From: a virus | IMG/VR virus record: IMGVR_UViG_3300045988_116984 | DNA length: 64,000 bases | Strand: one strand, 5' to 3' | In this document: positions 6,619 through 35,939 of the stretch, in pieces | Layout of the letters: each line of letters starts with the position of its first letter | How positions within the stretch are numbered: the first letter of the stretch is position 1 | Translations under genes and position numbers: made by a program | Notes under the pieces: model-generated | Told to the model about the DNA's origin: nothing | Seen by the model: only the letters and a program-made list of their open reading frames with translations | The model's database searches: none

Positions 6619-6650
6619 AAGGGACGCACAAACTGTGCGTCCCTTATTTT
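6619..6650 (+). terminator. rho-independent terminator
   Basis: AAGGGACGCAC-AAACT-GTGCGTCCCTT then ATTTT. The arms are nearly identical to those of the terminator at 5040. Confidence 0.7.
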
Positions 6651-6680: not shown

Positions 6681-7727
6681 ATGGCTAGAAAGACATTTAA
6701 AAAGATTATTACAAGTGAGGAATTAATTTCTCAAATAAATCCAGAGAACAAAAAAATAGCCGATAGGTTCTTAAAAAACTTTGCTACAAAACGCTCAGAA
6801 ACATCAGTTAAGGTGTATAAGTCCAATTTCAACATATTCTTTTGTTGGAATCTCCAATATAATGATAATAAATTCTTCACAGATATTAGAAAGTCTGAAA
6901 TGATGGATTTCTTTGACTATGGCTCGTCTGAATTACAGTGGAGTCCAAACAGATATGCTAATGTTTGGAGTTCTTTGAACAGTCTTAGTACGTTTATAGA
7001 GAATGTACTTGACGATGATTACCCTGATTTCAGAAATCAAGTGAGAAAAATAGAGAAGCAGCCAAAGGCTACTGTTAGAAAGAAAACAGTTCTTACCGAT
7101 GTACAAGTCCACAATTTACTCAATCATCTTTCAGAGACAAACACACAGCAAGCCTGTTTATTAGCGCTTGCGTGCTATTCGGGTGCTAGGATTAGTGAAT
7201 TGTTCCGTTTCACGACGGACTTGATTGATTTAAATAATTTAGCATATGAAGATTTGTTCCTTGAAACAACTGATGAGATTAAGACAAAGGGTAGAGGACG
7301 ACTCGGTAAGGTATTATATAAATACATATTAAAAGCGCCATTTGAGCCTTATTATGTTAAATGGATAGAAGAACGCGAAGCTATTATGAAAGAGCTTGGT
7401 GTGTCACATGATTATCTATTTATCAGAAAAGACGGACAACCAGCTACTCCAGACACGGCGCGCGTATGGATAAAGCAATGGGAGAAGTATCTTACGGACG
7501 AAGAACCGAGTAATAAGCGTCACGACCCTGTTGATTTATACGCCCATGCTTTCAGGCATTATCTGTGTACATATTTAGCTAAGATAGGGCTGGAACAAGA
7601 ACTTGTTGTCGAAATCTTTGGTTGGAGTTCATTTGATATGTTTAATATCTATAATGATATGACGGCCAAAGATAAAAAGTGGAAGGGGCTTGAGAAGCTC
7701 AAAAAAGCCATTGAAAAACAAGGGTGA
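6681..7727 (+). CDS. tyrosine site-specific recombinase (XerC/D / phage integrase family)
   Basis: Catalytic signature is visible: ARISEL (R), KTKGRG (K), HAFRHY (HxxR), GWSS, NIYND (Y); 348 aa. Confidence 0.85.
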   Translation: MARKTFKKIITSEELISQINPENKKIADRFLKNFATKRSETSVKVYKSNFNIFFCWNLQYNDNKFFTDIRKSEMMDFFDYGSSELQWSPNRYANVWSSLNSLSTFIENVLDDDYPDFRNQVRKIEKQPKATVRKKTVLTDVQVHNLLNHLSETNTQQACLLALACYSGARISELFRFTTDLIDLNNLAYEDLFLETTDEIKTKGRGRLGKVLYKYILKAPFEPYYVKWIEEREAIMKELGVSHDYLFIRKDGQPATPDTARVWIKQWEKYLTDEEPSNKRHDPVDLYAHAFRHYLCTYLAKIGLEQELVVEIFGWSSFDMFNIYNDMTAKDKKWKGLEKLKKAIEKQG

Positions 7728-8924: not shown

Positions 8925-11900
8925 GTGGCAAAACGCATTGATATTCTTTTTGGTTCTAGGATAGATGAAAGCGGAGCCAAAAAGGATATAGAGAGAATAC
9001 AAACAATATTTAAGAGTGCTGGACTTAAAATTGTTCCTCAATTTGACAATACAACATTAAAAGAGTTTCAGAAAAACCTAAAGGTTACAATTGACGAAGC
9101 TACTAAGTTAAGAACCCTCACGTCTAGCTTTACACAGGGTGGCATCAAGTACGATATCTCTCAACGCGAATCATCACGCGGACAATGGTCGAAACCCGTC
9201 GTATCAATGGACTATGAACAGTCTATTGATACTGTTGAGAAAAAGTTAAAGTCTTTATATAGAACCGCTATTGAAACGCAGGAAAACATAAACGCTGCGG
9301 CTAAGGTTGGCGCGGCCACATATCAAAAGCAGTGGGAAAAATCTCTTTCAGAGATAGAAGCAGAAATTAAGTCAACGAAAGAGACTCTTGCTACACTTGG
9401 ATATAACGTTGGTGAAGATAGAGGACTTAACAGACTAAGCGGTAGGCTCGGAACAGCAAAGCTCGAACAAGATGCTATTGAACAAAAGAAGCTTGCCGAC
9501 AATCTGGAAGATTCTCTTAATAGACTTATTGTAGCAGAGACAAACCTTGAAAAAGCGCAAGCTTATCACAGTAGCAACGAAACGATACAATCACTTCAAG
9601 CACAAGTTGACATGTATAGAAAGCAAATTCGTGCTATTGAAGAGGCCACTCATGCTACTGAGGAATTAAAGCAGAAAGCCAGAGAGGGAATTGAAAGTTC
9701 TTCTATAAATGCCAAGGGGTATAGCGCCCGCTCTGGTGAGAAATATGACAACGAGCAGTTAGAGGCATATTCTAGAGTTCTAAAAAAAGTAAACAAATAT
9801 AAGCTTGAACTTGCCGCGACAAACAAAAAAGTCGATTCGAGTAACGACGAAGTAAATCAATCAACTGAGAAATATATAAATTCTCTCAAAGAAGAAATTA
9901 GTAAATTAGAACGACGGCTTGATTTGATGCAGCAGTCGTTTAACACTTCCAATGCGGCGGCAACTGCGGCTGAAAAACGAGCAGAAGCTGAAAGAGAATG
10001 TGCATTAGCGATAGATAAGCTTAACAAAGAGATGGACGATGGTATTAGAACATCGAAAACTTTTGGAGAAGCTTTAAAAGATGCTTTTGATAATTATATT
10101 GGGCCAGCGGCTTTGGCCGATAGGGCAGTAGATTTGCTGGTGGATGGTGCTAAAGAAGCGTATCAGACTATCGTAGATTTGAATAAGGCCATGACTGATG
10201 TTCAGATGGTTACTGGTGAAAGCGCTGAACAAACGGCTGAATTAGCACATCAATATAGCCAAATGGCCAAAGAGCTTGGGGCAACCACTACTGAAGTTGC
10301 CAATGGAGCGGCGGAATGGCTGAGGCAAGGCAAGAGCGTAGCCGAAACAAACCAGCTTCTTGAATCTTCAATGATTCTGTCAAAAGTTGGCGCTATCGAA
10401 TCTTCACAGGCGACAGAGCTTCTTACTTCTACACTTAACGGGTACAAAAAAGAAGCAAATGAAGCAATGCATGTTGTTGACGCTATGTCGGCGGTTGACT
10501 TGGCTGCAGCTACTTCCGTTGAAGAACTTGCTGTTGCCCTCCAAAGTACCGCTAACATGGCTCGTGTTAATGGTGTTGGGTTTGAACAACTTCTTGGCAT
10601 GGTTGGCGCTGTTTCTGAGGCTTCAAGGCGTAGCGCTAGTGTTGTCGGTAACAGCTTCAAAACAATTTTTTCTCGTCTTACCAACGTTGCTGCTGGTAAA
10701 ATGACAGACGACTTAGGCGAGCCTCTTAACGACGTTGAACAAGTATTTAACGGGCTTAATATAAAGCTTAGAGATTCTAGTGGCGAGTTCCGCAACATGT
10801 ATGATGTTATTAGTGAACTCGCTAATAAGTGGACGAAACTTGACAACGCAGAACAAAGCTGGGTTGCTACAAGTGTGGCTGGTACACGTCAGCGTGAGAC
10901 ATTCTTGACATTGATGGAAAACTGGGATAGAGCGGTTACATTGTCAACTACGGCTTTGAATTCCGAAGGCATGGCTATGGACAAGATGTCGATTTATCTC
11001 GAAAGTATCGAAGCGAACCTGAACAAGCTAAAAGCCGCTGTTGAGGACTTGTTGTATAGCGAAGAAATTGTAAACGTAATCAACCTCGTTATTAAAGCAA
11101 TAACACGGCTTGTAGAGGGAATATCTTGGCTTATAGATAAGCTTGGAGGAGTCAATTCGGCTGTTTTGGCTACTGTTGCTATTTTCTTAAAACTTAAAAG
11201 TGCTATAAATATAGCTAAAGACACTGAAAAAGTGTCGGGCGCTTTAAAAGTTTTTTCTGAAATTGCTAGTGGCGGAAATAAAACCATAAAAGTATTAACT
11301 TCAACATTTTCTGCGTTTAAAGACGGAGTATTGGCAGGTAAAGATGCCATAAATATAGCTGGTAAAGCTCTTTGGGCTTCTCCGTTTGTCAAAGTAGCAA
11401 TTGTATTAGCAGGAATTACAGCTATTGTTGCTGCGTTTGATGCCCTAATAACGACAACAGAAGAATACGAAGATATACTTGCTGAAACACAGTCTAAGCT
11501 TCAAGAAGTAAGTGATAAACGAAATGCTCTTGAGCAAAAAGCCGAAGTTGAGCAACTTACAGAAGCTGAAAAAGAGTATTTAGAAGTATTAAAGGCTGAA
11601 GAAGGTATTCTTGAAGCGCGTGAAAAGCGTGATAGACAGAACGTCTATAATTCTGCGGCAAAAGATGTTGAGCGTGGCGGCGAAGGGTTCTGGGCGAGAG
11701 CCAAAGAGGCGGCATTTATGTCGTCTCAAAACCCTGTCAACGAATTGGGCCTGCCAATTCCAAACAAAGCTCCGGTTGTTGAATACAACGTAGCCATCGA
11801 GGAACTTACTGGCAATATTGAGGAATATAAGGAAGTCACAGACCAACTTAATAACTCAAGTGGAAAGTCTCTTGAAGAATACGAGGCATTACAAGAGAGA

Positions 11901-13991
11901 CAACAAGAGTTAAGCCAAGTATTTCTTGAACACATCAAGCGTATATCTGAAGCGAACACTTACGGGTTAGAACTAACTGACACTGATAAACAACTCGCTG
12001 AAATGATGGAGAAGGCTGGAATCACAGCAGAAGCTCTGTCAGAAGCAATGGGCAATGTTGCTAATGAGCTTGGCGAAACCGGAGATGACTTAGTCAGAAT
12101 TACATCGGAGGTTTCTGGCTTACAATCCGCTTATGACAACTTAATATCTGTAAACGAAGAAGTAGCAAACACTGGAGTTATTTCAATTGAAACTCTTGAT
12201 GCTCTTGTTTCAAGATATCCAGCACTCAATGATGAAGTAACAAACTATCTTCTTGGACTTGCTTCAACAGAAGATGTTCTAACAGAATTGAAATTGGCCT
12301 ATCAGGATGATGAAGCAAATGCCTATGCTAATATCATAAACAAATTGAAAATGCAACAAAACTATTATAGTTTGTTGTCTACAATGGATTCGGCTTTAAT
12401 GCAACAATTTGCTGCTGATTATGGTGTTGATATTGGCAATCATGGCACATATGCTCAGTCAAAAGAAAAGATAGAAACTGATTTACTTCAGAGAATTTCG
12501 TCAATGTGGGCACAGTTCTATAAATCACAGGCATTGACGATGGACAACGTTATTAAGGCGGCTAACGGAGCGTTAAAACCAGATGGCGGCTCACTTTTAC
12601 CTACTTCAGAGATTAATGCTTTGAAGAACGTTGTAAACTCTTATAACGATGCTATTCAGGGACTTAATAACGTATATGATAAATCAATAAAATTAAGGCT
12701 TGATGGATATAAACAAATAAGTTCTGCCGCCAAAGACGCAGCAAAATCTAGTGGTTCTGCATCTAAGCAACAAAGCGAAGCCGAAAAAGCGTATGATGAC
12801 TTGTTGCAAATAACAATCAAGATGCTCAAAAAGAAAAAAGAGCTTGAAAAAGAAGCACTTAAAGAGCAGCTTGAGGGTTATAAAAAAGTTATTGATGCTC
12901 AAAAAGATTTACTTGATTTACAGGACGACGAGTATAATCATAAGCGTGAGTTAGAAGAAAAGAACAAAACTGTCTCTACTCTTGAATCACAAATTGCTGA
13001 ACTTCAGTTTGATACGAGTGCTGAGGGCACAAAGAAACGTCTTGAACTCGAAGAAGAACTTGCCGAAGCCAAGCGTGAACTTGAAGATTATCAACACGAT
13101 TATTCTATTGACCAGCAAAAAGACGCTCTTGACAGAGAAGAAAGTCGATTTGAAGAATATATCAATAACCAAATTGATGAAATTGACGATTATCTTTCTA
13201 AGACTGGTGAAATAACTGCTGAAGCTATTAGACTTCTTCAAGAGCATAGTGAGGAAACCCTTAATGCTCTAATTCAATATAACAGAGCGTATGGGGATTC
13301 AATAGACCAGAATATCATTGATTTATGGAACAAAGCCACAGGCGCTGTCAACACATATAAATCTGCTCTTGATGAGGCGGCCTCCGCAGCAAGCCGATTG
13401 GCAGCGGCAAGTGGTGGTGGAAGTTCTGTTTCATTGCCGAGCACTAGCCCTCCTGTTGGTAGCGCTGCCATGCGCCCTGCTGGCAAACCGCCTGTTGATA
13501 CTACGCCGAAATATCTTATTTATAAAACAGGCACAACTACCCCCATTAGTGGCTTTATGACACTAGAGGAAGCTCAAAGGGTTTGGGGATATATTCCAGA
13601 CCCAAAAAACTACTATTGGACAAAATTCGTCGGAGCGGCAAAGAAAAACTTAGTATATGCTGTTAAACCATATCATACCGGGCTTGATGCTGGATTTGTT
13701 GGCAACATCAAAGGTAATGAAGAGTTTGTTAAGGCCCTTAAAGGCGAAGCCTTTATTACCAGAGAGCAACAGGACAGATTTATGAATAATATTCTTCCTG
13801 ATATTGTTTCAAAGACTTCTACATATGGCGGAGCAACTTTTGATAATCTCCTCAATATTAACGTGCAGGGCAATCTTGATTCTTCTGTTGTTCCTGATAT
13901 TGAGCGCATATCAAATGATGTATTTAAACGTCTTAACAAGGCAATGTTCCAAGGCGGATATAAACGAAACACGAATACTGTTTCAATTTAA
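8925..13991 (+). CDS. tail tape measure protein
   Basis: 1688 aa with long coiled-coil/Ala-rich regions and central hydrophobic segments (VAIFLKL..., VAIVLAGITAIVAAF). Located just upstream of Dit and Tal. Confidence 0.85.
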   Translation: MAKRIDILFGSRIDESGAKKDIERIQTIFKSAGLKIVPQFDNTTLKEFQKNLKVTIDEATKLRTLTSSFTQGGIKYDISQRESSRGQWSKPVVSMDYEQSIDTVEKKLKSLYRTAIETQENINAAAKVGAATYQKQWEKSLSEIEAEIKSTKETLATLGYNVGEDRGLNRLSGRLGTAKLEQDAIEQKKLADNLEDSLNRLIVAETNLEKAQAYHSSNETIQSLQAQVDMYRKQIRAIEEATHATEELKQKAREGIESSSINAKGYSARSGEKYDNEQLEAYSRVLKKVNKYKLELAATNKKVDSSNDEVNQSTEKYINSLKEEISKLERRLDLMQQSFNTSNAAATAAEKRAEAERECALAIDKLNKEMDDGIRTSKTFGEALKDAFDNYIGPAALADRAVDLLVDGAKEAYQTIVDLNKAMTDVQMVTGESAEQTAELAHQYSQMAKELGATTTEVANGAAEWLRQGKSVAETNQLLESSMILSKVGAIESSQATELLTSTLNGYKKEANEAMHVVDAMSAVDLAAATSVEELAVALQSTANMARVNGVGFEQLLGMVGAVSEASRRSASVVGNSFKTIFSRLTNVAAGKMTDDLGEPLNDVEQVFNGLNIKLRDSSGEFRNMYDVISELANKWTKLDNAEQSWVATSVAGTRQRETFLTLMENWDRAVTLSTTALNSEGMAMDKMSIYLESIEANLNKLKAAVEDLLYSEEIVNVINLVIKAITRLVEGISWLIDKLGGVNSAVLATVAIFLKLKSAINIAKDTEKVSGALKVFSEIASGGNKTIKVLTSTFSAFKDGVLAGKDAINIAGKALWASPFVKVAIVLAGITAIVAAFDALITTTEEYEDILAETQSKLQEVSDKRNALEQKAEVEQLTEAEKEYLEVLKAEEGILEAREKRDRQNVYNSAAKDVERGGEGFWARAKEAAFMSSQNPVNELGLPIPNKAPVVEYNVAIEELTGNIEEYKEVTDQLNNSSGKSLEEYEALQERQQELSQVFLEHIKRISEANTYGLELTDTDKQLAEMMEKAGITAEALSEAMGNVANELGETGDDLVRITSEVSGLQSAYDNLISVNEEVANTGVISIETLDALVSRYPALNDEVTNYLLGLASTEDVLTELKLAYQDDEANAYANIINKLKMQQNYYSLLSTMDSALMQQFAADYGVDIGNHGTYAQSKEKIETDLLQRISSMWAQFYKSQALTMDNVIKAANGALKPDGGSLLPTSEINALKNVVNSYNDAIQGLNNVYDKSIKLRLDGYKQISSAAKDAAKSSGSASKQQSEAEKAYDDLLQITIKMLKKKKELEKEALKEQLEGYKKVIDAQKDLLDLQDDEYNHKRELEEKNKTVSTLESQIAELQFDTSAEGTKKRLELEEELAEAKRELEDYQHDYSIDQQKDALDREESRFEEYINNQIDEIDDYLSKTGEITAEAIRLLQEHSEETLNALIQYNRAYGDSIDQNIIDLWNKATGAVNTYKSALDEAASAASRLAAASGGGSSVSLPSTSPPVGSAAMRPAGKPPVDTTPKYLIYKTGTTTPISGFMTLEEAQRVWGYIPDPKNYYWTKFVGAAKKNLVYAVKPYHTGLDAGFVGNIKGNEEFVKALKGEAFITREQQDRFMNNILPDIVSKTSTYGGATFDNLLNINVQGNLDSSVVPDIERISNDVFKRLNKAMFQGGYKRNTNTVSI

Positions 13992-14003: not shown

Positions 14004-14792
14004 ATGGCATTTTGGGCACGTTCATTTATATTTGATGATATCCCAAGTGAAACTTACGGCCTGTTTTTAATTAGCGAGAGTGGAGCTGGCGTTCTAGAGA
14101 ACGTCGGCTCCAATTCGGTAGAGCCGTATACACAGGAGATATACAGAAAACCAAAGCCGTATTTCTTCGGTGTTCAACAAACGCCAGTTCTCACATTTAG
14201 TTTGAGCTTCGCTAGTTTAAAACCAGTCGATGCTGTTCAACAGCAAATTATTCAAAGATGGTTGTTTGGACACAATTCATATAAAAAGCTTCAAATAATG
14301 CAGTGCGACATGGAATCGGTATACTTTAATTGTATACTGAACAATCCAACAGTCACTACTGTTGGGAACTATGCTTATACATTTAAGTGTGACGTGGTGT
14401 GTGATGCGCCATGGGCTTGGGAATACCCTAAAACAGAATCATTTGGGCCGTTTTTAGTTGAAGGAACGTTCGATTTTAATAATATTTCGGACGACAACTA
14501 CTATATGTTCCCTATTTTTACTGTTAAAATGGGGAGCAATTCTAATTCGTTTGAACTGATAAATAAAACCGATGGGAATAAAGGTTGTTCCTTTGTGGGG
14601 TTAAGTCCAAGCGAAACATTGACAATTGATTCTAATAAATATATAATCACATCAAGCACAGGATTATTGCGTGTTGGTAATATGACTGGCACTCTGCCAA
14701 GACTTGTGCCCGGTATGAATACATTTCAAGTTCTTGGTTCACCTGAAAGCATAACAATAAGTTATCAAAACGCAAGGAAAGTAAGCGGATAA
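14004..14792 (+). CDS. distal tail protein (Dit, siphovirus tail component)
   Basis: 262 aa directly after the tape measure. The N-terminus FIFDDIPSETYGLFLI is typical of Sipho_tail-type proteins. Confidence 0.65.
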   Translation: MAFWARSFIFDDIPSETYGLFLISESGAGVLENVGSNSVEPYTQEIYRKPKPYFFGVQQTPVLTFSLSFASLKPVDAVQQQIIQRWLFGHNSYKKLQIMQCDMESVYFNCILNNPTVTTVGNYAYTFKCDVVCDAPWAWEYPKTESFGPFLVEGTFDFNNISDDNYYMFPIFTVKMGSNSNSFELINKTDGNKGCSFVGLSPSETLTIDSNKYIITSSTGLLRVGNMTGTLPRLVPGMNTFQVLGSPESITISYQNARKVSG

Positions 14793-14810: not shown

Positions 14811-17474
14811 ATGTTACAAAAGTTTAATTATTTCGGAGAACATGAAGATTATGTAATCAGATTGTGTAATCCGAATAAACAACAAATCTGTTTCTTAAAT
14901 CAAGGATATCAACAGGAACTGTCTTTGAGATTTAATGAAATGTCAGAGTTCCACATCACTATTCCATATATGACAGATGGAGAAATATTCCCATATTATG
15001 ACAGAATAAAGAGCAAAAAACTTATTTTGATTGATGATATTGGGTATTTTCTAATCACAACTGTTGATGAAACAGATGATGGTATTGTCAAACAAAAGAC
15101 TGTAACAGCATATTCTTTAGAAACGGAACTTGCGTTTAAAAAAATAAACATATTTGATGGTACGTATAAGTTCTATGACCCTATTAACGCAGACAACACA
15201 CTTATGGGCAAGATTCTGTCAACATCCAACTGGACAATTGGGCAGATAGACCCTGACTTATGGAATGTTTATAGGACTTTTGAGATACCGGATAGTACAG
15301 TATATGAATTTTTAATGAATGATGTCGAAACGTCTTATGAATGCGTATTTATGTTTGACTCTTTTGCTAGGACAGTTTCGGCATATACATTGAAAAACCT
15401 AGTAAAGAATACTGATATTATACTAAGTTACAATAATCTGATTCAAAATATTGACATTAATGAAAAATCAGATGAAATTGTTACGGCTTTAAGCGTATAT
15501 GGCGGTAATAATCTTGGTATATCGGCTGTAAATCCATTGGGCACAAACACAATCTATGATTTTAGTTATTTTGCCACAACAGAATGGATGGACCAAGCCT
15601 TAATCAATGCTATTAAAGCCTGGGAGGCCGCAATAGCAGCACAACAAACAAGATATTCTAACCTTTTAACTCAATACAAAGATAAAAACACCGAGATAGT
15701 GACAGCCAATTCTACTTTAGTAGACTCAAAGACTGACAGAGACGCTATTGAGGGCGTTGTAAAGGTTATGATAGAGGGAGATTTGAAGAATACTCCCGAA
15801 TACACAGCCAAGGTTAATGAGCTTAATGCCGCCAATGCAGCCGTAACAGCACAAGAAAATCATATAAATGATTTAAAAACACAGCTTGAAGTTATAAACT
15901 CTGATTTAAAAGCAATCAATGAATCTTTGGCTTTCTCTAAATTCTTCACGGAAGAACAGTACGAAGAACTCAAAACCTATATGGTTGAGAATACATATCA
16001 AAATGAAAGTTTTACTATAACATCAGAAATGACGAATAGTGAAATCCAAGATATGGCACAATCTCTGTATAATCAGGGCAAATATGTACTTGAAAGAGTA
16101 TCACAGCCACGTTTTGAGTTCACAGTTGAAAGTGTAAACTTTTTATTCTTAAAGGACTTTGAAAAATTTAGTCAACAGTTGGAACTTGGATGTATTATTA
16201 ACATAGAGAAAGACGAAGCTGTGTATGTCAAGCCAGTATTACTTGAATTGAATGTACAGCTTGATGACCCAACGAATTTTTCTCTTGTATTCGGCAATAG
16301 ATATAAGCTTGATAATGGCGAATATACTTTCAGAGATTTGTTCGGTGATGCTATTAAGGCTGGTTCAAGCGTTAAATTTGACGGCGCTAAGTGGGGAGAA
16401 TATGTCAATAGTGGAATGAATAACGCTGTTAGTGACTTTATTAACTCCGCCTTAGACACTTCAAAGAATAATGTTATCAATGCCACAAATCAAGAGATAT
16501 TGATAAATCAAAACGGATTGCGTGGACGTACCATGATGGATAATGGTACATACAATCCAAACCAAGTATGGCTTACATCCAACACTCTTGCTTTTACGTC
16601 AGATAACTGGCAAACTGTACGACTTGCTCTTGGCGAAATAGATTTAAACGGACAAAAGATTTTTGGTGTTGCTGGTGATGCTTTGGTTGGTAAAATTATC
16701 GCTGGTAATCAGCTTATTATATCCAACGACAACAACAACTTTACATTGGACAGCAATGGTGCTGTACTGAACAATGCTAGTTTTTCTATTGTTTCTAATA
16801 ACGGGTTAAGTCAAATACAACTAAACCCGACACAAGGCATTAGTATACAAACAAGGGCGAACACAAGCGCTGCTTGGGCTAATCAATTTTACGTTGATGC
16901 GCAAGGCAATCTTGTTATTAACGGCAAAATCACAGCTAATAGCGGTACAATTGGTGGATGGCAAATTGATTCTACCAGATTATATAACTCTGCTAATGGT
17001 GACTACATTGGCTCAAATGGATATGGTAAACTTAGTTTGCTTTCGTGGACACCAACATCGGCTACATTTAACGGCAGAATTTACGCTTCAAATCTTGGTG
17101 ACCAAATTAAAACGGGCAATATTCAAGATGGCGCTGTAACGTCGGCAAAGCTAGATACTCTATATGCTACCAAGGCATTTGTTGATGAAATGAACGTTGA
17201 ACTGGCTAACGTACATACGCTTGCGGCAAATGCGGCTACAATTCAACAGTTAAATGCCACAAATGCTACAATTGCTAATCTTGACCTTACAAATTTGAAA
17301 TTTCAAGGGCGTTCAGCGAGCTGGACTCAGACGCCAATCGTGTATGATTTGAATGTGACTAATACGCTTGTCATAACATCGGTTGATTTTAAGAATCAAA
17401 CATATACATCAGCAAATATAACTGGTATTCGTAACTTCTATAAAACAAGCGGAATGTGGGTTATTAGTGGTTGA
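14811..17474 (+). CDS. tail-associated / anti-receptor protein (Tal-like minor structural protein)
   Basis: 887 aa after Dit. The N-terminal region is of the phage minor structural protein (putative anti-receptor) type, with a central coiled coil. Ends ...NLKFQGRSASW...SGMWVISG*. Confidence 0.7.
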   Translation: MLQKFNYFGEHEDYVIRLCNPNKQQICFLNQGYQQELSLRFNEMSEFHITIPYMTDGEIFPYYDRIKSKKLILIDDIGYFLITTVDETDDGIVKQKTVTAYSLETELAFKKINIFDGTYKFYDPINADNTLMGKILSTSNWTIGQIDPDLWNVYRTFEIPDSTVYEFLMNDVETSYECVFMFDSFARTVSAYTLKNLVKNTDIILSYNNLIQNIDINEKSDEIVTALSVYGGNNLGISAVNPLGTNTIYDFSYFATTEWMDQALINAIKAWEAAIAAQQTRYSNLLTQYKDKNTEIVTANSTLVDSKTDRDAIEGVVKVMIEGDLKNTPEYTAKVNELNAANAAVTAQENHINDLKTQLEVINSDLKAINESLAFSKFFTEEQYEELKTYMVENTYQNESFTITSEMTNSEIQDMAQSLYNQGKYVLERVSQPRFEFTVESVNFLFLKDFEKFSQQLELGCIINIEKDEAVYVKPVLLELNVQLDDPTNFSLVFGNRYKLDNGEYTFRDLFGDAIKAGSSVKFDGAKWGEYVNSGMNNAVSDFINSALDTSKNNVINATNQEILINQNGLRGRTMMDNGTYNPNQVWLTSNTLAFTSDNWQTVRLALGEIDLNGQKIFGVAGDALVGKIIAGNQLIISNDNNNFTLDSNGAVLNNASFSIVSNNGLSQIQLNPTQGISIQTRANTSAAWANQFYVDAQGNLVINGKITANSGTIGGWQIDSTRLYNSANGDYIGSNGYGKLSLLSWTPTSATFNGRIYASNLGDQIKTGNIQDGAVTSAKLDTLYATKAFVDEMNVELANVHTLAANAATIQQLNATNATIANLDLTNLKFQGRSASWTQTPIVYDLNVTNTLVITSVDFKNQTYTSANITGIRNFYKTSGMWVISG

Positions 17475-17496
17475 TATTAAATTAACCACTAATAAC
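17460..17496. terminator. symmetric 13-bp hairpin formed by the two convergent VISG-stop ends
   Basis: GTTATTAGTGGTT (17460-72) / AACCACTAATAAC (17484-96) with an 11-nt AT loop. Confidence 0.5.
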
Positions 17497-17655
17497 ATAA
17501 CCAGAGCTACCATATGTAAGCCCAACTACTACTTTTTCTTCGGAATATGTTGGAGTTCCTCCAGAACTAATACTTGAAACATATCTAATTGTGTGAGTTT
17601 GTATACCGGTTACAAACGTTGAGTATCTCCAACTAGCAGCTATACCTTGAAAATT
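17482..17655 (-). other. silent, start-less alternative C-terminal cassette for the Tal gene (inverted)
   Basis: The minus strand reads *NFQGIAASWRYSTFVTGIQTHTIRYVSSISSGGTPTYSEEKVVVGLTYGSSGYVISG*. There is no start codon or RBS. It is homologous to the last 57 aa of the 887-aa ORF. Confidence 0.6.
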
Positions 17656-17693
17656 TCAATTTTATTGACTATATAAAAGGAGTAAACGGAAAA

Positions 17694-17861
17694 ATGAAAG
17701 AAAAATTACAATCTATTTATAATGCCTTGAATACTATTCAAGTTAGTGGTAAAACAAACTGTGCTATTGTAGCTGGCGTTATGAATGTTATCGAAGAATT
17801 ATTCGTAGAATGCGAAAACTATCAACCTGTAAAACAGGAAGAAGGGAATACTGATGGCTAA
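17694..17861 (+). CDS. small hypothetical protein (55 aa)
   Basis: AAAAGGAG RBS 8 nt upstream of the ATG; the stop overlaps the next start. Below the 60-aa cutoff of the ORF track. Confidence 0.5.
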   Translation: MKEKLQSIYNALNTIQVSGKTNCAIVAGVMNVIEELFVECENYQPVKQEEGNTDG

Positions 17862-18213
17862 TGGCATATTTTGCTACGAGGTAAATCAGCTTGGCGAATT
17901 TGCAATGATTGCCGGTACATCTGAAACTCTTGAATTTTACTATTATTACTCGGATGGCACACCATTCAATTTAGAAAGTTCAACAGCGAGATGGAGATTG
18001 TGTCGTGTTGGACAACCAGATGTCGCCGTTTTAGATTTGCCCTGTGATATATTTAGCGGTAATGGTGTTGTTGTAAAACTTGGCAGTGCTCATACACAGA
18101 ACCTTTCAGGGAAATATATACAACAGCCTGTACTTATAGATTATTCTGGAGAAGAATACGCTTTTCAACAGGGCGTTATTACATTTATTCCAAAGATTAG
18201 GCCAACAACATAA
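17854..18213 (+). CDS. hypothetical baseplate/fibre-module protein
   Basis: 119-aa ORF coupled to the upstream small ORF. Confidence 0.6.
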   Translation: MANGIFCYEVNQLGEFAMIAGTSETLEFYYYYSDGTPFNLESSTARWRLCRVGQPDVAVLDLPCDIFSGNGVVVKLGSAHTQNLSGKYIQQPVLIDYSGEEYAFQQGVITFIPKIRPTT

Positions 18214-21707: not shown

Positions 21708-22331
21708 ATGTTAAGTTTCTCTGTCAAGAAGCAAAAACTCGAAAGAAAAGACAATCAAGAAGTGGTTGGAGGAACATATAATTACTTATATGCTGTATTT
21801 GACTTTTCATATGATTGGGACAACGTTTCTAAAAATGCAATATTCAATAACTGCAAAGCAAAGAAAAACTTTGCCGTTCCTATTGTAGAAAATATATGTC
21901 TTGTGCCATGGGAGGTTATAGAAAGTCCAAACTTTACGGTATCGTTATATGGATTTACAGACAACAAGAGAATAACTTCTAATGAAGTTATGATACCAGT
22001 TAAAAGCAAACCATATAACGCCAATAACATTCCATCACCGCCTCCGACACCAACTGATTATGAAGCATATGTACAACTTGTAAATAAATATAAAGAAGAA
22101 TCGGACGCTCAATACAATGAGCTTAAAGAAACAAAAGCGGAAGTAACAACAACTGACAGCATTTATAAATTCCCGAATATCGGGAACAAAAACTATCTAT
22201 ACATTGATTCTTCTACTAATACAACGTATAGATGGGATGAAACCGAATTAAAGTATTATTGTGTTGGTTCTGATTACAGAGAAATAGAGATTATCATAGG
22301 GGGGAAAGCAAGTGGCAAATACAACTCTTAA
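21708..22331 (+). CDS. hypothetical protein
   Basis: 207-aa ORF 4 nt after the previous stop. Confidence 0.55.
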   Translation: MLSFSVKKQKLERKDNQEVVGGTYNYLYAVFDFSYDWDNVSKNAIFNNCKAKKNFAVPIVENICLVPWEVIESPNFTVSLYGFTDNKRITSNEVMIPVKSKPYNANNIPSPPPTPTDYEAYVQLVNKYKEESDAQYNELKETKAEVTTTDSIYKFPNIGNKNYLYIDSSTNTTYRWDETELKYYCVGSDYREIEIIIGGKASGKYNS

Positions 22332-23682
22332 TGTTAAAATACAAATAAGAAATGACGTTGCCAATACTTGGAAAACCACAAACCCTGTACTTCTAAAGGG
22401 TGAAATGGGTATTGAAACAGATACAAGGAAGTTCAAGTTCGGTGACGGCGTTTCAACTTGGACTGAACTTGACTATGCAAGTGCGCAAGCTGCGGTTGTA
22501 ATGAACAAAGCGCCTACGCCAATGGACTCTGGATATGATATTGGTGTAATTTGGATTGATACAGCGGGCAACAAGGCGTATGTCTTGTTTAACAACACAT
22601 CTAATAATGCTATTTGGAAACAGATGGTTACGCCTGATGACTTGAGCGACCTTGGCGCAGGAGACATGTTGAAATCTCAGTTTGCCAACAATCCAAAAGC
22701 AGAGCAAGGTTATGTAAACGCAGCTATTGTAGCCGACACAGCAAATGCTACTAAGGCGGCGCTTACTGCTGGTACAAAGACATTTAACGGCTCAACAGCG
22801 ATTGAAATCACTGCTGGTGATTTGGGTGCTCTTACATCTGTTCCATCAGAGTACGTCAAAAACACAGATTACGGTACTACCGAACAGGGCGGCGTTGTTA
22901 AGTCGGTTGCTAAGGGCACTGATACAGTTACCATTAACGCCGACGGAACAATGTCCATGGGAAAGGCTTCTACCGCCGGAGCGGCAGACACCGCCGCTGC
23001 TTTACAAACTGGTAGAACGATTGCTCTTAGTGGAGACGCAACTGGTACTTCTGCTGCTTTCGATGGTACGGCGAATGTAACAATTCCTGTTGTATTAGCA
23101 AAGAGTGGTGTTACAGCTGGTACATTCACAAAGGTTACTGTGAATGATAAAGGGCTTGTAACAAGCGGGGAGGCTCTTGTAGCTTCTGACATTCCATCCC
23201 TTACTCTTTCGAAGATTACTGATGCTGGTACTGCTGCTGCGGCTGATACTGGTATCGCAGAGGGCAACGTCCCCATTCTTGGTGCTGGTGGCAAACTGAA
23301 CGAAGCGGTTATCCCCGCCATTGCTATTACTGATACATATGTTGTTGACAGTCAAGCCGCAATGCTTGGGCTTGATGCTCAAAAAGGTGACGTTGCTGTT
23401 CGTACAGATATCAATAAAACATTCATCTTAAAACAGTCTCCCGCATCTACTTTGGGAAACTGGGTTGAGCTTGAAACACCGACAGATGCTGTAACGAGTG
23501 TAAATGGTTTAACTGGTGCTGTTGTTCTTACAACATCAAATATAGAAGAAGGAAGTAATCTTTATTTCACGACTGCTAGAGCAAACGCGAACTGGATTAC
23601 ACATGCTTCTACGGAGCTTACAGACTCTGATACTCTGCTTAGGACAACTGACACATTTATACTTAATGGCGGAAATGCCTAA
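22312..23682 (+). CDS. tail fibre protein
   Basis: GTG start after GGGGGGAAAG. The N-terminus NVKIQIRNDVANTWKTTNPVLLKGEMGIETDTRKFKFGDGVSTW is a fibre N-terminal (Mtd-N-like) motif; the rest is Ala/Thr/Gly-rich. Confidence 0.7.
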   Translation: MANTTLNVKIQIRNDVANTWKTTNPVLLKGEMGIETDTRKFKFGDGVSTWTELDYASAQAAVVMNKAPTPMDSGYDIGVIWIDTAGNKAYVLFNNTSNNAIWKQMVTPDDLSDLGAGDMLKSQFANNPKAEQGYVNAAIVADTANATKAALTAGTKTFNGSTAIEITAGDLGALTSVPSEYVKNTDYGTTEQGGVVKSVAKGTDTVTINADGTMSMGKASTAGAADTAAALQTGRTIALSGDATGTSAAFDGTANVTIPVVLAKSGVTAGTFTKVTVNDKGLVTSGEALVASDIPSLTLSKITDAGTAAAADTGIAEGNVPILGAGGKLNEAVIPAIAITDTYVVDSQAAMLGLDAQKGDVAVRTDINKTFILKQSPASTLGNWVELETPTDAVTSVNGLTGAVVLTTSNIEEGSNLYFTTARANANWITHASTELTDSDTLLRTTDTFILNGGNA

Positions 23683-23710
23683 TCTATATCAACATTAAGG
23701 AGGGGTATCT

Positions 23711-31013: not shown

Positions 31014-31491
31014 TATATGATTTCCTAAATAAATGTGTTAAATCTTCAAATTCTTTATTTTTTATATGATAGAATTTTTGATTTGTTTTCCCCGAATCGA
31101 GTCCACCATACTCTTTAATATAAGGGCCAATCTTCAAATAATCAATAATATTGTCGTTAATTAAATCTGCGAAAGAAGTTATGCTTTGTAGTCCACTATA
31201 AATACATGTTTTTAGATTCGGATATTTTTCTTTGATTGACTTTATAAATAGATAAAGTTCTTCTATATTTTGGTCGCCGCCCATAAAACAAACACATGTA
31301 ATAAATGTATTATATCTATCAATTATTTTTAAATAATCCTCTTTTACATATTTACCAACATAATCCCATAGATATTTAGAGTGGCAACCCTCACATTTGT
31401 GAGGGCAACCACTAATATTGAACACAAGAGTTGTTTCGTTCGGTACTTCTTGGAACACTATATCATAAGAACAATATTTTAGATTAAGCAT
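31006..31491 (-). CDS. nrdG: anaerobic ribonucleotide reductase activating protein (radical SAM)
   Basis: CPHKCEGC radical-SAM cluster motif. ATG 31491 overlaps the nrdD stop (ATGCTTAA). Confidence 0.85.
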   Translation of the reverse strand: MLNLKYCSYDIVFQEVPNETTLVFNISGCPHKCEGCHSKYLWDYVGKYVKEDYLKIIDRYNTFITCVCFMGGDQNIEELYLFIKSIKEKYPNLKTCIYSGLQSITSFADLINDNIIDYLKIGPYIKEYGGLDSGKTNQKFYHIKNKEFEDLTHLFRKSYNA

Positions 31492-31930
31492 AATATCTAT
31501 CACGTTCTTCTTTTTGACGCGCCTCAGAGAAGTTTGATACACGTTTCAAATACCCAATTACTCTAGTGGCATAATCAAGATTTTCGCTTCCGCATTTTGG
31601 ACATTTATTTAAACGATGTTTACTAATATGGCCACATTCGTTACAGATTGTATTTGGAACATTGAATGTAAAATACGAACATCCTGTTGACATTGCGGTA
31701 TCGAGCAAATGTTTATACTGTTCTTTTGTAAGGTGTTCGTTCAGATTGGCATGAAGGGCGCTACCACCATCAAGATATTTTGTTAGCTTTTCTCCATGTA
31801 ATATAAACTTATCAATAAGATTTACACTATCATCTTCCACACGATAGAAATAACTATTATAACACTCTCTTGGTACATATAGCCCATCTTTTTTATCCCA
31901 GCCTGAATTTTTAACGCCTAGATTTTCCGC
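31484..31930 (-). CDS. nrdD: anaerobic (class III) ribonucleotide reductase, exon 2
   Basis: AENLGVKN..., a Zn-ribbon (CNECGH...CPKCGS) and the glycyl-radical motif RVIGYL. Joins ...NTEFVP of exon 1 in frame. Confidence 0.85.
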   Translation of the reverse strand, partial: AENLGVKNSGWDKKDGLYVPRECYNSYFYRVEDDSVNLIDKFILHGEKLTKYLDGGSALHANLNEHLTKEQYKHLLDTAMSTGCSYFTFNVPNTICNECGHISKHRLNKCPKCGSENLDYATRVIGYLKRVSNFSEARQKEERDRYYA

Positions 31931-32821
31931 CATTCTGTTGCTTTTATGACCTACATCAATTCTTTTTCAGCATTAGTACGTGCTTCTAATGCTAACTCAT
32001 AAGTTTCAAACGTACCTAAGTAGTGCGTTTTATAATTTTTTGTGATTGTGACTTGATATTTACCAGAAGGAACTCTTTTTATCCCTTTTCTATCAATTGA
32101 TTGGTTCCTAATGTTATCAGAATGTTCTATTACCCTAAGATTATTTTTACGGTTATCCATTCCGTTTCTATTTATATGGTCTATATCTTTGTCACCATAA
32201 TAATTAAGAATAAATCTATGTAAGAACGTTTGTTTTCCATTTATATTAGTCATAGCATAATTTGTATTTTTGCTTCTTTTTATGTGCCATTTACGCTCTA
32301 AGCAACGTTGTAAATCATCTGTGTCTATTATAGCTCTGCCAATCTCTTTACAATTCTTATCATTAATTATAATTTCTGAATAATCATCAAATATAATATA
32401 ATCGTTTTTATCATAAATGGTTTTATCTAAGAAGCCGCCATGTCTATATAATTGTGTTATATGGCGAGTACATAAGTTCATGCCCCTAATCGTTCTTATG
32501 CGTTTCTTATCGCTTGTTATTCCACATACGTCACACTCTATAATTTATACTCCTTTCTATATTTTAATAGCACGTTTTATGATGTAGGCGGTGATGGTTC
32601 TTCCAAGAGTGTCTTTACACTCGACCATCACTCACTATGTTACCATAGTGTTCAGACTATCGCACCAGCACCTAAGTGCTGCTTCTTCATTTAGTCGTTC
32701 ACGCTGCCATTACGCTTGCGCCCTGTTATCCAACTGTAAAGACAATTGGAACTCCAAGTCAATTAGAAGAAGTTTTTATATGACAGTTTATGTATTATGC
32801 TGCCAAGTGCCCACTCATTTT
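31931..32821 (-). mobile_element. group I intron interrupting nrdD (carries an HNH endonuclease ORF)
   Basis: 891 nt lie between the conserved ...FNTEFVP and AENLGVK... The 5' exon ends in U, the intron ends in G, and both exons are multiples of 3. The upstream ~340 nt are GC-enriched and non-coding. Confidence 0.7.
31951..32481 (-). CDS. HNH homing endonuclease with AP2 DNA-binding domain (intron-encoded)
   Basis: DHINRNGMDNRKNNLRVIEHSDN (HNH) plus GIKRVPSGKYQVTITKNYKTHYLGTFETYELA (AP2). The frame stays open upstream to an ATT/ATA at 32544/32541 behind an AAAGGAG RBS. Confidence 0.8.
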   Translation of the reverse strand: MNLCTRHITQLYRHGGFLDKTIYDKNDYIIFDDYSEIIINDKNCKEIGRAIIDTDDLQRCLERKWHIKRSKNTNYAMTNINGKQTFLHRFILNYYGDKDIDHINRNGMDNRKNNLRVIEHSDNIRNQSIDRKGIKRVPSGKYQVTITKNYKTHYLGTFETYELALEARTNAEKELM

Positions 32822-35919: not shown

Positions 35920-35939
35920 TACCTTAATTGTAAATAAAT

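What the first reader, a model, noticed from the sequence alone, without database searches (positions are those of the whole stretch)
17301..17655. Start-less, inverted alternative C-terminus behind the Tal/anti-receptor gene: candidate miniature invertible host-range switch
The 887-aa tail-tip ORF ends ...NLKFQG-RSASWTQTPIVYDLNVTNTLVITSVDFKNQTYTSANITGIRNFYKTSGMWVISG*. Seven nt past its stop, on the opposite strand (17482-17655), a 57-codon frame reads NFQG-IAASWRYSTFVTGIQTHTIRYVSSISSGGTPTYSEEKVVVGLTYGSSGYVISG*. That frame has no start codon and no RBS, and an in-frame TGA closes it immediately upstream of the shared (N/K)FQG junction. The two tails are homologous (ASW, TY.S, G..Y..SG.(W)VISG) and lie tail to tail, so their identical ends form a 13-bp hairpin that could terminate either orientation. 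The junction octamer TTTCAAGG (17301-08) recurs inverted at 17645-52, within TTGAAATTT(T)CAAGG (14/15 with one indel). The left copy sits in the perfect palindrome TTGAAATTTCAA. Recombination in the octamer would invert about 340 bp and fuse the silent cassette in frame. The layout mirrors the Mu G / P1 C segments and shufflons, but it is far smaller and has no adjacent serine invertase. The only recombinase in the window is the tyrosine recombinase at 6681-7727.
Basis: partly seen in the sequence, partly recalled or inferred. Interest (0 to 1): 0.85.

Follow-up and report, generated by a model that had tools for sequence, protein, structure and literature searches.

The report
Invertible tail-tip switch in gut phage
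The last 55 amino acids of this gut phage's tail-tip protein lie on a 336-bp DNA segment that carries a second, silent version on the opposite strand, and related phages carry the identical segment in either orientation, so it is a real but very small member of the known class of phage switches that change the host-binding tip by flipping DNA.

Summary
The 887-aa tail-tip gene (14811-17474) ends in cassette A. A start-less homologous cassette B lies tail-to-tail on the minus strand (17482-17644). Short inverted repeats flank the pair.

In 30+ related human-gut phage contigs, the inner 336 nt occurs in both orientations, with breakpoints inside an invariant core, TTGAAATTTCAAGG. One contig (L055) carries the window's own segment at 100% identity but flipped, with B fused in frame to the tail-tip gene. 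Five cassette pairs occur in both orientations. All 29 silent cassettes are intact and under purifying selection (pN/pS 0.08-0.22).

The closest relative (L001) replaces the module with a three-cassette nested version. Identical segments also sit in diverged backbones, so the cassette pairs move horizontally.

Caveats:
- The window's right core carries a 1-nt insertion, so this copy may be impaired or locked.
- The enzyme is not shown. The only recombinase in the window (6681-7727, catalytic residues intact) lies 9.6 kb away. Its homologues also occur in phages with no detectable switch.
- The central hairpin is conserved but is not a canonical terminator.

This is a new variant of a known kind (Mu G, P1 C, the Rin and BV01 shufflons).

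The parts
14811..17308 (+). Constant part of the tail-tip (Tal-position) gene, up to and including the codons NLKFQG
   Evidence: The ORF is 887 aa. It follows the tape-measure gene (8925-13991) and a Dit-family gene (14004-14792: PF20195, PF20753; PF22768 just below its cut-off). It matches phrog_6211 'minor tail protein' at 2e-93. The YOMG_N match is 24.9 bits, below the Pfam cut-off of 27.
17291..17308 (+). Left recombination core, AAATTTGAAATTTCAAGG. The 14-nt exact core TTGAAATTTCAAGG is 17295-17308 and contains the palindrome TTGAAATTTCAA.
   Evidence: All orientation breakpoints in relatives fall inside this sequence. The five codons of the core show no synonymous variation, while nearly every third codon position just upstream varies. 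For the metagenome loci (L038-L056) the left core was fixed by the search pattern. For the IMG/VR loci, which were found by protein similarity, it was not.
17309..17474 (+). Cassette A, currently expressed (RSASWTQTPIVYDLNV...GMWVISG plus the stop)
   Evidence: The same cassette type is silent in 13 loci and expressed in 5. Its pN/pS is 0.08.
17460..17496 (.). Central hairpin spanning both stop codons, which are 7 nt apart
   Evidence: The arms are 16 nt and 94% complementary. The fold is -24 kcal/mol with z = -4.8. A comparable hairpin is present in most cassette pairs of relatives, at -8 to -30 kcal/mol. No U-tract follows and the terminator scan does not call it.
17482..17644 (-). Cassette B, silent (IAASWRYSTFVTGIQTHTIRYVSS...GYVISG plus the stop). 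It has no start codon of its own.
   Evidence: The same cassette type is expressed in 15 loci and silent in 6. Its pN/pS is 0.13. L055 has this very sequence fused in frame to the tail-tip gene.
17645..17662 (-). Right recombination core, carrying a 1-nt insertion. It reads AAATTGAAATTTTCAAGG on the minus strand.
   Evidence: Of the 29 right cores that could be read, 27 are the exact 14-mer. Only the window and its 99.4% twin L044 carry the extra T.
17227..17664 (.). Exchangeable module: the neck end plus the invertible segment. Some relatives have a different module here.
   Evidence: L001 matches the window at 97.6% and 99.5% in the flanks. L001, L009, L010 and L014 replace exactly this interval with a module of about 755 nt that holds three cassettes and two nested inverted-repeat pairs.
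6681..7727 (+). Tyrosine recombinase, the candidate invertase (inferred, not shown)
   Evidence: It matches PF00589 at 1.2e-18. R170, K203, H289, R292, W315 and Y324 are invariant across homologues down to 36% identity. It is present in all 10 switch-bearing contigs that reach far enough. No other recombinase was found in the window.

Best explanation
This is a two-cassette DNA-inversion switch that changes the last 55 residues of the tail-tip protein.

The constant part of the gene ends in the codons N-L-K-F-Q-G. Those codons form the left copy of a short recombination core (TTGAAATTTCAAGG). An inverted copy of the core lies 336 nt downstream. Between the cores sit two homologous but diverged C-terminal cassettes, tail to tail. 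Only the cassette joined to the left core is translated.

Site-specific recombination between the two cores flips the segment and fuses the other cassette in frame. Nothing outside the segment changes. The same sites also appear to allow whole cassette pairs to be exchanged between diverged co-infecting phages.

The most likely enzyme is the phage's own tyrosine recombinase (6681-7727), acting at a distance. I put this at about 0.5.

The expected consequence is two (in some relatives three) tail-tip specificities within one phage lineage, that is, a change of receptor or host range. This is inferred from position and precedent and is not shown.

In this window the switch is in the A-on state. 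Its right core carries a 1-nt insertion that probably lowers or abolishes switching. If the crossover fell on the promoter-proximal side of the extra T, the product would be a frameshift. I put the chance that this copy is impaired or locked at about 0.5.

What is shown: the anatomy; both orientations in nature with breakpoints in the core; intact and selected silent cassettes; horizontal spread of the segment.

What is inferred: the enzyme, the rate, the within-population heterogeneity and the phenotype.
For: 1. Precise flips. L003 and L013 match in plus orientation in the flanks (95.6% and 97.0%). The 372-nt piece between and including the repeats matches at 99.5% in minus orientation.

2. 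The window against L055. The inner 336 nt are 100% identical in minus orientation. The flanks match at 96.4% and 98.1% in plus orientation. The junction sequences of L055 are the exact recombinant products.

3. Five cassette pairs (A/B, B/C, D/E, D/G and the window's own A/B allele) each occur in both orientations. Six of the seven cassette types are seen both expressed and silent.

4. All 29 silent cassettes are intact. pN/pS is 0.08 for A, 0.13 for B and 0.22 for D.

5. The right core is exact in 27 of 29 loci. In the loci found by protein similarity, the left core shows no synonymous change although the neighbouring third positions vary.

6. A repeat of 14-18 nt is shorter than sequencing reads and shorter than the larger k-mers modern metagenome assemblers use, so assemblers should not flip the segment by mistake (inference). 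One IMG/VR contig (L008) ends exactly at the inner edge of the core. That is what an assembly-graph branch would produce if both orientations were present in that sample.

7. The type II relatives L009 and L010 differ by two nested inversions at their own repeats. L001 and L014 differ by one inversion.

8. Recombinase. The catalytic set is intact. It is conserved at 86-98% amino-acid identity in every switch-bearing contig that is long enough. The window has no lysogeny module: the minus-strand block encodes NrdD, NrdG and dUTPase, and the phage carries its own Pol III alpha and primase-helicase. An integrase role is therefore not obvious.

9. Horizontal exchange. Segments that are 99-100% identical sit in backbones only 76-98% identical, and the break in identity falls within about 8-19 nt of the cores.
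Against: - No reads were available, so switching within one population is not shown.
- The window's right core differs from the family consensus by an insertion. Both contigs that carry it (the window and L044) are in the same orientation.
- The recombinase is 9.6 kb from the left core, not adjacent as in Rin, BV01, Mu or P1.
- Its homologues occupy the same structural-module position in Tyroviruses (gp50) and in the Lactococcus 949 group. Homologues are also present in the gut-phage record MT835481 (35% identity) and in the L029-group gut phages (65% identity). I found no inversion module in MT835481 or the L029 group, and the 949-group phage PMBT69 has no room for one after its tail-tip gene.
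- No third copy of the core lies near the recombinase gene.
- The core contains a 12-bp perfect palindrome and is short for a classical tyrosine-recombinase site with two arms and a 6-8-bp spacer.
- The receptor-binding role of the 55-residue domain is untested. The AlphaFold model has low confidence (pLDDT 58; a long helix followed by four strands).
Confidence: 0.8

Rival explanations
1. This is a frozen relic. The window's copy is a former switch that no longer inverts, because the right core has a 1-nt insertion. Cassette B is then on its way to decay.
For: The window and its 99.4% twin L044 both carry TTGAAATTTTCAAGG and both are A-on. An indel inside the crossover region generally blocks or derails tyrosine-recombinase strand exchange (established knowledge of the family). 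A crossover 5' of the extra T would frameshift the tail-tip gene (read directly from the sequence).
Against: The window's inner 336 nt are 100% identical to those of L055, which is flipped and has canonical cores. The insertion is therefore very recent and cassette B shows no damage. A crossover within CAAGG would still give an in-frame product. A homopolymer miscall shared by two assemblies cannot be excluded.
Confidence: 0.45
2. Inversion is real, but an enzyme other than 6681-7727 catalyses it. Candidates are a host invertase acting in trans, or a recombinase encoded outside the 64-kb window.
For: The recombinase is not adjacent. Its family is conserved in phages where I found no switch. 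Its function is called unknown in Tyroviruses (PMC9703825). Related contigs reach 92-120 kb, so part of the genome is unseen. A bifidophage inversion of about 500 bp with no flanking recombinase has been reported, with a trans-acting invertase proposed (PMC6109161).
Against: It is the only recombinase found in the window. It is present in every switch-bearing contig that is long enough. It sits in the late structural operon, so it would be made when genomes are replicating. The host is unknown, and no relative was found in 185,579 species genomes.
Confidence: 0.4
3. There is no programmed inversion. The orientation differences arise from rare general (homology-driven or replication template-switch) recombination at a short repeat, or only from horizontal replacement of the segment in either orientation.
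For: Identical segments are found in diverged backbones, so horizontal replacement certainly occurs. The type II modules have long outer repeats of 46-104 nt that ordinary homologous recombination could use.
Against: Fourteen to eighteen nucleotides is generally considered too short for efficient RecA-type recombination. Yet flips are seen in five independent cassette pairs, between segments that differ by 0-3 nt. The core is frozen at synonymous sites. Silent cassettes stay intact and selected, which requires regular expression. Replacement in either orientation with breakpoints at the cores would itself need site-specific recombination at those cores.
Confidence: 0.1
4. This is an assembly artefact. 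Metagenome assemblers oriented the segment arbitrarily because of the inverted repeats and the central palindrome.
For: All the data are metagenome assemblies. Some contigs have low coverage (2-7x, from the contig names).
Against: The repeats (14-18 nt) and the hairpin arms (16 nt) are shorter than sequencing reads and than the larger assembly k-mers, so both junctions are spanned by single reads (inference). Orientation is consistent among independent assemblies of the same strain type, for example L005, L006, L007, L048 and L049. The flipped forms always give a clean in-frame fusion.
Confidence: 0.03

Closest known systems
Mu G segment / Gin, P1 C segment / Cin, p15B Min multiple-inversion system
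   Same: An invertible segment flanked by short inverted repeats swaps the C-terminal, specificity-determining part of a tail adhesin. The constant N-terminal part stays in place. The alternative cassettes face each other.
   Different: Those systems use an adjacent serine invertase. Their segments are 3-4 kb and include a cassette-specific assembly gene. They act on myovirus side fibres. Here the segment is 336 nt and holds only two 55-codon cassettes. No serine recombinase was detected. The target is the central tail-tip (Tal-position) protein of a large siphovirus-type phage.
Rin shufflon of Bifidobacterium prophages (Mavrich et al. 2018, PMC6109161)
   Same: It is a phage-encoded system, with a tyrosine-family recombinase proposed as the invertase. 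Short crossover sites (11-bp rix) precede each variable C-terminal cassette of a siphovirus receptor-binding protein. The evidence came from comparing genomes and induced virions.
   Different: The Rin recombinase flanks the cassettes, there are about five cassettes, and the phages are temperate phages of actinobacteria. Here there are two cassettes (three in some relatives). The candidate recombinase lies 9.6 kb upstream, inside the structural operon. The phage shows no lysogeny module within the window.
Second bifidophage inversion, 689b-1 versus Bb423phi2 (same paper, PMC6109161)
   Same: It is a segment of about 500 bp that carries the 3' end of a structural gene and a small opposing gene. 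It is inverted between two related phages at an 8-bp sequence, with no recombinase next to it. In form this is the nearest match.
   Different: That gene's function is unknown, only two genomes were compared, and no selection or repertoire data were given. Here the target is identified by synteny, seven cassette types are catalogued, and flips are seen repeatedly.
BV01-like Phocaeicola phage tail-fibre shufflon (2026 preprint, PMC13596623)
   Same: It is a human-gut phage. The distal end of a tail-fibre gene is recoded by cassette inversion at 10-bp motifs, and read data confirm its activity.
   Different: It spans 1.7 kb, has three non-homologous cassettes and an adjacent recombinase, and belongs to a temperate Bacteroidota phage.
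R64 shufflon / Rci, and the fimS / FimB-FimE switch
   Same: Both are tyrosine-recombinase inversions at very short sites (19-bp sfx; 9-bp repeats flanking the 314-bp fimS). They show that an element of about 300 bp can be inverted by this enzyme class, and that one conserved arm plus a spacer can suffice. This rests on my own knowledge and was not tested here.
   Different: Those are bacterial or plasmid systems. fimS carries a promoter, not coding cassettes. The Rci shufflon has an adjacent recombinase and recodes the PilV pilus adhesin.
Structural-module tyrosine recombinase of Tyroviruses (gp50) and the Lactococcus 949 group
   Same: It is homologous to 6681-7727 (about 25% identity). It sits in the same unusual position between the neck and tail genes and the tape-measure gene. 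The authors call its function unknown and its location 'especially curious' (PMC9703825).
   Different: No inversion has been reported in those phages. PMBT69 has no room for silent cassettes after its tail-tip gene.

Membership tests
Phage tail-adhesin DNA-inversion switches (generic class) | A segment bounded by inverted repeats, found in both orientations, with breakpoints inside the repeats | tested here: met
   Flips occur in five cassette pairs. The window and L055 are 100% identical over the inner 336 nt in opposite orientation.
Phage tail-adhesin DNA-inversion switches (generic class) | Alternative C-terminal coding cassettes that fuse in frame to one constant N-terminal part, with the silent one lacking its own start | tested here: met
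   All 29 silent cassettes are intact, with pN/pS of 0.08-0.22.
Phage tail-adhesin DNA-inversion switches (generic class) | Both orientations coexist within one phage population (active switching) | not testable with these tools
   No read data were available. The only hint is that contig L008 ends exactly at the inner edge of the core.
Phage tail-adhesin DNA-inversion switches (generic class) | The two orientations give different receptor or host specificity | not testable with these tools
   This is inferred from the Tal position and from precedent. The structural model is too weak to use (pLDDT 58).
Gin/Cin/Min (serine invertase) type | A serine invertase gene adjacent to the segment | tested here: not met
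   No Resolvase-type hit appeared among the ORFs scanned. The catalytic-motif scan of all six frames found nothing.
Gin/Cin/Min (serine invertase) type | The segment carries a cassette-specific fibre-assembly gene (U/U' type) | tested here: not met
   The 336-nt segment holds only the two 55-codon cassettes and a 7-nt spacer.
Tyrosine-recombinase phage shufflons (Rin, BV01-like) | The phage encodes a tyrosine recombinase with an intact catalytic set | tested here: met
   It matches PF00589 at 1.2e-18. R170, K203, H289, R292, W315 and Y324 are invariant.
Tyrosine-recombinase phage shufflons (Rin, BV01-like) | The recombinase gene flanks the cassette array | tested here: not met
   The gene ends at 7727 and the left core starts at 17291. 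The tape-measure gene, the Dit gene and the tail-tip gene body lie between them.
Tyrosine-recombinase phage shufflons (Rin, BV01-like) | Three or more cassettes that shuffle by multiple inversions | tested here: not met
   The window has two cassettes and one repeat pair. The relatives L001, L009, L010 and L014 do have three cassettes and two nested repeat pairs.
Tyrosine-recombinase phage shufflons (Rin, BV01-like) | This recombinase catalyses the inversion | not testable with these tools
   The support is co-occurrence in 10 of 10 contigs that are long enough. Against it, homologues also occur in phages without a detectable switch.
Tal (tail-tip protein downstream of Dit in siphovirus-type tails) | Gene order tape measure - Dit - Tal, and homology of the N-terminal body to tail-tip proteins | tested here: met
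   The upstream gene matches the Dit domains PF20195 and PF20753 (PF22768, at 24 bits, is just below its cut-off of 25). The protein matches phrog_6211 at 2e-93. tblastn finds proteins annotated as 'tail endopeptidase' or 'minor tail protein' in Bacillus and Lactococcus phages. The Pfam YOMG_N match, at 24.9 bits, is just below its cut-off of 27.
   The stem is strong, but no T-run follows it and the scan does not call it.

The most novel reading that the evidence does not exclude
The tyrosine recombinase that sits unexplained in the structural operon of many large Firmicutes siphoviruses (Tyrovirus gp50, the 949 group, and this gut clade) would here be a late-expressed DNA invertase and cassette-exchange enzyme. 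During lytic replication it would flip, and swap between co-infecting genomes, a 336-bp coding module. A single burst of an apparently non-lysogenic phage would then release particles with different tail tips, and cassette pairs would spread through diverged phage backbones by recombinase-mediated exchange at a 14-bp core.
Probability: 0.35. Interest if true: 0.75.

Novelty: new variant of a known kind. Interest (0 to 1): 0.62.

Why it matters
Host-range switching by DNA inversion is textbook for Mu and P1, but few cases are documented outside enterobacterial myoviruses.

This one adds several things:
- It shows the principle reduced to about the smallest workable size: a 336-bp flipped segment, two 55-codon cassettes and a 14-bp core.
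- It acts on the central tail-tip protein of an uncultivated, apparently lytic human-gut phage clade.
- It comes with a natural catalogue of seven cassette types, plus a three-cassette nested variant in the closest relative.

It gives a concrete, testable candidate function for a recombinase family whose position inside the tail operon has been noted as unexplained (PMC9703825).

It suggests that the same sites drive horizontal exchange of specificity modules between diverged phages.

Practically, a 14-bp core and a 336-bp module could be a compact tool for engineering switchable receptor-binding tips. Gut-virome host prediction should also allow for phages with two or more alternative tips.

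Tried and rejected
- DNA search of 16800-17900 against GenBank phages found nothing.
- The 14-mer core, with up to 2 mismatches, has no further copy in the window, so there is no third site near the recombinase. AAATTTNNAATTT, the motif shared by the type I and type II cores, is too AT-rich to be significant.
- A whole-window scan for inverted repeats found no second invertible module. The 15-nt perfect repeat inside the fibre gene (25347 / 25611) would create a stop if inverted.
- I looked for co-occurrence of switch and recombinase in more distant phages.
  - MT835481 (35% identity) has a 15-nt repeat near the end of its tail-tip gene but no alternative cassette.
  - The L029 group (65% identity) has a different baseplate and no candidate repeats of 13 nt or more.
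  - In Staphylococcus Sextaecvirus the homologue sits after the lysis genes, so it is not syntenic.
  - Lactococcus PMBT69 is syntenic but has no room for cassettes, and no close relatives were available for comparison.
- An alignment-based locus search did not reach intermediate relatives of the tail-tip gene.
- The protein database returned only 4 relatives of the C-terminal region. The AlphaFold model was therefore shallow and of low confidence, and I ran no fold search on it.
- No PDB sequence relative of the recombinase was found at E <= 0.001.
- No relative was found in 185,579 species genomes, so there is no host clue.
- Terminator function for the hairpin was rejected on the absence of a U-tract.


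Full report
**1. The observation**

The sequence is as described. The 887-aa ORF 14811-17474 ends ...NLKFQG-RSASWTQTPIVYDLNV...GMWVISG*. Seven nucleotides after its stop, the minus strand carries an open frame, 17482-17655, that reads NFQG-IAASWRYSTFVTGIQ...GYVISG*. It has stops just upstream, and the ORF lister calls no ORF in that frame.

The two tails align at 29% identity (E = 0.001). TTTCAAGG (17301-08) recurs inverted at 17645-52. The left copy lies in the palindrome TTGAAATTTCAA, and the right copy has one extra base. The two stop codons sit in a 16-bp hairpin (-24 kcal/mol, z = -4.8).

Within the window alone this is suggestive but not compelling. The 14-mer, with up to 2 mismatches, is no rarer than chance.

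**2. Context**

The gene follows a 1688-aa tape-measure gene and a Dit-family gene (PF20195, PF20753). It matches phrog_6211 'minor tail protein' at 2e-93. It therefore occupies the Tal (tail-tip) position of a siphovirus-type tail.

The window encodes an NrdD/NrdG/dUTPase block on the minus strand, a Pol III alpha, a primase-helicase and methyltransferases. I found no repressor or integrase module. It resembles the large Firmicutes siphoviruses, whose tail-tip proteins are its nearest GenBank relatives at 25-31% identity. There is no DNA match in GenBank phages and no relative in 185,579 species genomes. All relatives found come from IMG/VR viral contigs or human-gut metagenome assemblies.

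**3. The decisive evidence: relatives carry the same segment in both orientations**

A protein-based scan of IMG/VR gave 18 loci. A scan of metagenome contigs with the left-junction 26-mer gave 19 more.

In every locus that spans the region, the constant part ends in ...NLKFQG. A cassette of 53-55 residues follows it, and a second cassette lies on the minus strand beginning (K)LKFQG. Seven cassette types (A-G) occur. Six of them are found both fused to the gene and in the silent position.

For the A/B pair:
- A is expressed in the window, L011, L042, L044 and L046.
- B is expressed in twelve loci, including L002, L005-L007 and L055.

The B/C, D/E and D/G pairs are likewise seen both ways (L003/L013, L004/L047, L015/L041).

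BLAST shows clean flips. L003 and L013 match in plus orientation in the flanks (95.6% and 97.0%), while the 372 nt between and including the repeats match at 99.5% in minus orientation.

Most directly, L055 carries the window's own inner 336 nt at 100% identity, reversed. Its flanks match at 96.4% and 98.1% in the same orientation, and its two junctions are exactly the predicted recombinant joints.

**4. The site**

In the relatives the inverted repeat is an exact 14-mer, TTGAAATTTCAAGG. It extends to 18 nt with one mismatch: AAATTTG... on the left and AAAATTG... on the right. All breakpoints fall inside it.

The right core is exact in 27 of 29 loci. In the loci found by protein similarity, the left core's codons show no synonymous change, although almost every third position just upstream varies. 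The metagenome loci were selected with the left core, so they are not independent evidence for it.

The site is short and contains a 12-bp palindrome. Outside it the two copies share little, and inside only the weakly conserved codons R-x-A-x-W follow. This recalls the sites of Rci and Rin more than loxP-type sites. That comparison is inference.

**5. Selection**

All 29 silent cassettes are intact and of constant length. Within cassette types, pN/pS is 0.08 (A), 0.13 (B) and 0.22 (D), with pS of 0.41-0.55. Sequences that were never translated would not behave like this.

**6. A modular and mobile element**

The window's closest relative, L001 (97.6% and 99.5% in the flanks), together with L009, L010 and L014, replaces exactly 17227-17664 with a different module of about 755 nt. 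That module has three cassettes. It has an outer inverted repeat of 46-104 nt and an inner 19-nt repeat that flanks a 422-nt tail-to-tail unit. L009 and L010 differ by two nested inversions, and L001 and L014 differ by one. It is a miniature shufflon.

L017 and L002 are 98% identical in the flanks but carry unrelated cassette pairs.

Conversely, inner segments that differ by 0-3 nt sit in backbones only 76-98% identical. The break in identity falls within about 8-19 nt of the cores. Cassette pairs therefore move horizontally with breakpoints at or next to the cores. This is what recombinase-mediated exchange between co-infecting genomes would produce, though that mechanism is inference.

**7. 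State of the copy in this window**

The right core has a 1-nt insertion (TTT to TTTT). The 99.4% identical contig L044 shares it. L046 and L055, which carry the same cassettes, lack it.

The insertion is recent, because the inner segment is identical to that of L055. It lies inside the presumed crossover region, so it would be expected to hinder strand exchange. A crossover 5' of the extra T would frameshift the tail-tip gene, and only one within CAAGG would be in frame. Both carriers are A-on. I put the chance that this copy is impaired or locked at about one half. A shared homopolymer error cannot be excluded.

**8. The enzyme**

The ORF 6681-7727 is a tyrosine recombinase (PF00589, 1.2e-18). 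R170, K203, H289, R292, W315 and Y324 are invariant across homologues down to 36% identity. No other recombinase turned up in the Pfam scan of 29 of the window's larger ORFs or in the serine-recombinase motif scan of all six frames. It is present, at 86-98% identity, in all ten switch-bearing contigs that extend far enough. This includes the contig of L009, which has the three-cassette module. It lies in the late structural operon, just upstream of the tape-measure region.

Against a dedicated role:
- It is 9.6 kb from the left core.
- Homologues occupy the same position in Tyroviruses (gp50, function stated as unknown; PMC9703825) and in the Lactococcus 949 group.
- Homologues are also present in MT835481 and in the L029-group gut phages, where I found no inversion module. 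The 949-group phage PMBT69 has no room for one after its tail-tip gene.

I therefore put the assignment at about 0.5. The alternative is a host enzyme, or one encoded outside the window (related contigs reach 92-120 kb).

**9. The hairpin**

A hairpin across the two stops is present in most cassette pairs, at -8 to -30 kcal/mol, with a fixed spacing of 7 nt (or 2 nt). Much of it follows from the shared terminal codons (W-V/I-I/V-S/T-G-stop). It has no U-tract and is not called as a terminator. The downstream genes are co-oriented and closely spaced. A role in RNA 3'-end stability is possible but untested.

**10. Function**

That the 55-residue domain determines receptor choice is inferred from three things. 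[quoted passage not shown] The AlphaFold model shows a helix followed by four strands, but at pLDDT 58. And there is precedent from Mu, P1 and Rin. No experiment or confident structure supports it yet. The phage also has other fibre-like proteins, for example the two Mtd_N proteins at 22312-26092.

**11. Comparison with what is known**

In how it works, this belongs to the class of phage adhesin switches driven by DNA inversion.

It is not a member of the Gin/Cin/Min type. There is no serine invertase and no assembly gene in the segment.

It resembles the tyrosine-recombinase shufflons Rin (PMC6109161) and BV01-like (PMC13596623). It differs from them in that the recombinase is not adjacent and, in this window, there are only two cassettes.

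The nearest match in form is the bifidophage inversion of about 500 bp at an 8-bp site with no flanking recombinase, from the same 2018 paper. That case rested on two genomes only.

At 336 bp the flipped segment is about the size of fimS (314 bp, from my own knowledge), so a tyrosine recombinase can physically invert it.

**12. Verdict**

It is a new variant of a known kind. Interest is moderate to high for four reasons: its minimal size; its target and host clade; the natural cassette catalogue with evidence of horizontal exchange at the cores; and the possible first function for the enigmatic structural-module recombinase. The main open points are the enzyme, the within-population dynamics, the phenotype, and whether this particular copy still switches.

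Noticed in passing
L001:3736-4490; L009:8417-9176; L010:8133-8894; L014:1733-2501: The closest relatives replace window 17227-17664 with a module of about 755 nt. It holds three alternative C-terminal cassettes, an outer 46-104-nt inverted repeat (encoding AANYATIGSLNAANA) and an inner 19-nt repeat (AAATAAATAATTTATCTGC). L009 and L010 differ by two nested inversions. It is a miniature shufflon on the same gene.
   Followed up: partly
window 17309-17644 compared with L004, L011, L013, L042, L046, L047, L055 and others: Inner segments that are 99-100% identical sit in phage backbones only 76-98% identical. The drop in identity falls within about 8-19 nt of the cores. This suggests horizontal, site-associated exchange of cassette pairs.
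   Followed up: partly
window about 17100-17290 (L011 versus L045): In tail-tip genes that are otherwise 97% identical, 41 of the 59 mismatches in the 2 kb upstream of the left core fall in the last 200 nt before it. This looks like a second mosaic 'neck' module next to the switch.
   Followed up: no
window 35786-36766: A dense cluster of nested inverted and direct repeats (arms up to 112 nt) lies where the minus-strand gene block meets the plus-strand block and the GC skew changes sign. It is probably a replication origin or regulatory region.
   Followed up: no
window 31484-34225 (minus strand): The anaerobic ribonucleotide reductase gene nrdD is split into two ORFs (profile positions 7-414 and 415-560). 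An HNH-endonuclease ORF (31951-32481) lies between them, like an insertion of a homing endonuclease or intron.
   Followed up: no
window 34449-34904 (minus strand): A free-standing 151-aa ORF has Hint / intein-splicing domain matches (below or near the Pfam cut-offs).
   Followed up: no
window 6619-6650: A hairpin with an 11-bp perfect stem and a following T-run lies directly upstream of the recombinase gene, inside the structural operon. It looks like a terminator that could keep recombinase expression low. The consensus scan did not call it.
   Followed up: partly
window 25347-25361 / 25611-25625: A 15-nt perfect inverted repeat lies inside the 793-aa Mtd_N fibre gene. Simulated inversion introduces a stop codon, so it is not a second switch.
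   Followed up: yes
window 22312-23682 and 23711-26092: Two consecutive fibre-like proteins carry the Mtd_N (major tropism determinant N-terminal) domain. No reverse transcriptase was seen in the ORFs scanned.
   Followed up: no
window 63576-63606 / 63706-63736: A 31-nt inverted repeat, 94% complementary, has arms 99 nt apart near the end of the window.
   Followed up: no
L008 (IMGVR_UViG_7000000570_000022), contig end: The contig ends exactly at the inner edge of the left core (...AAATTTCAAGG). An assembly-graph branch would give this if both orientations were present in that sample.
   Followed up: no
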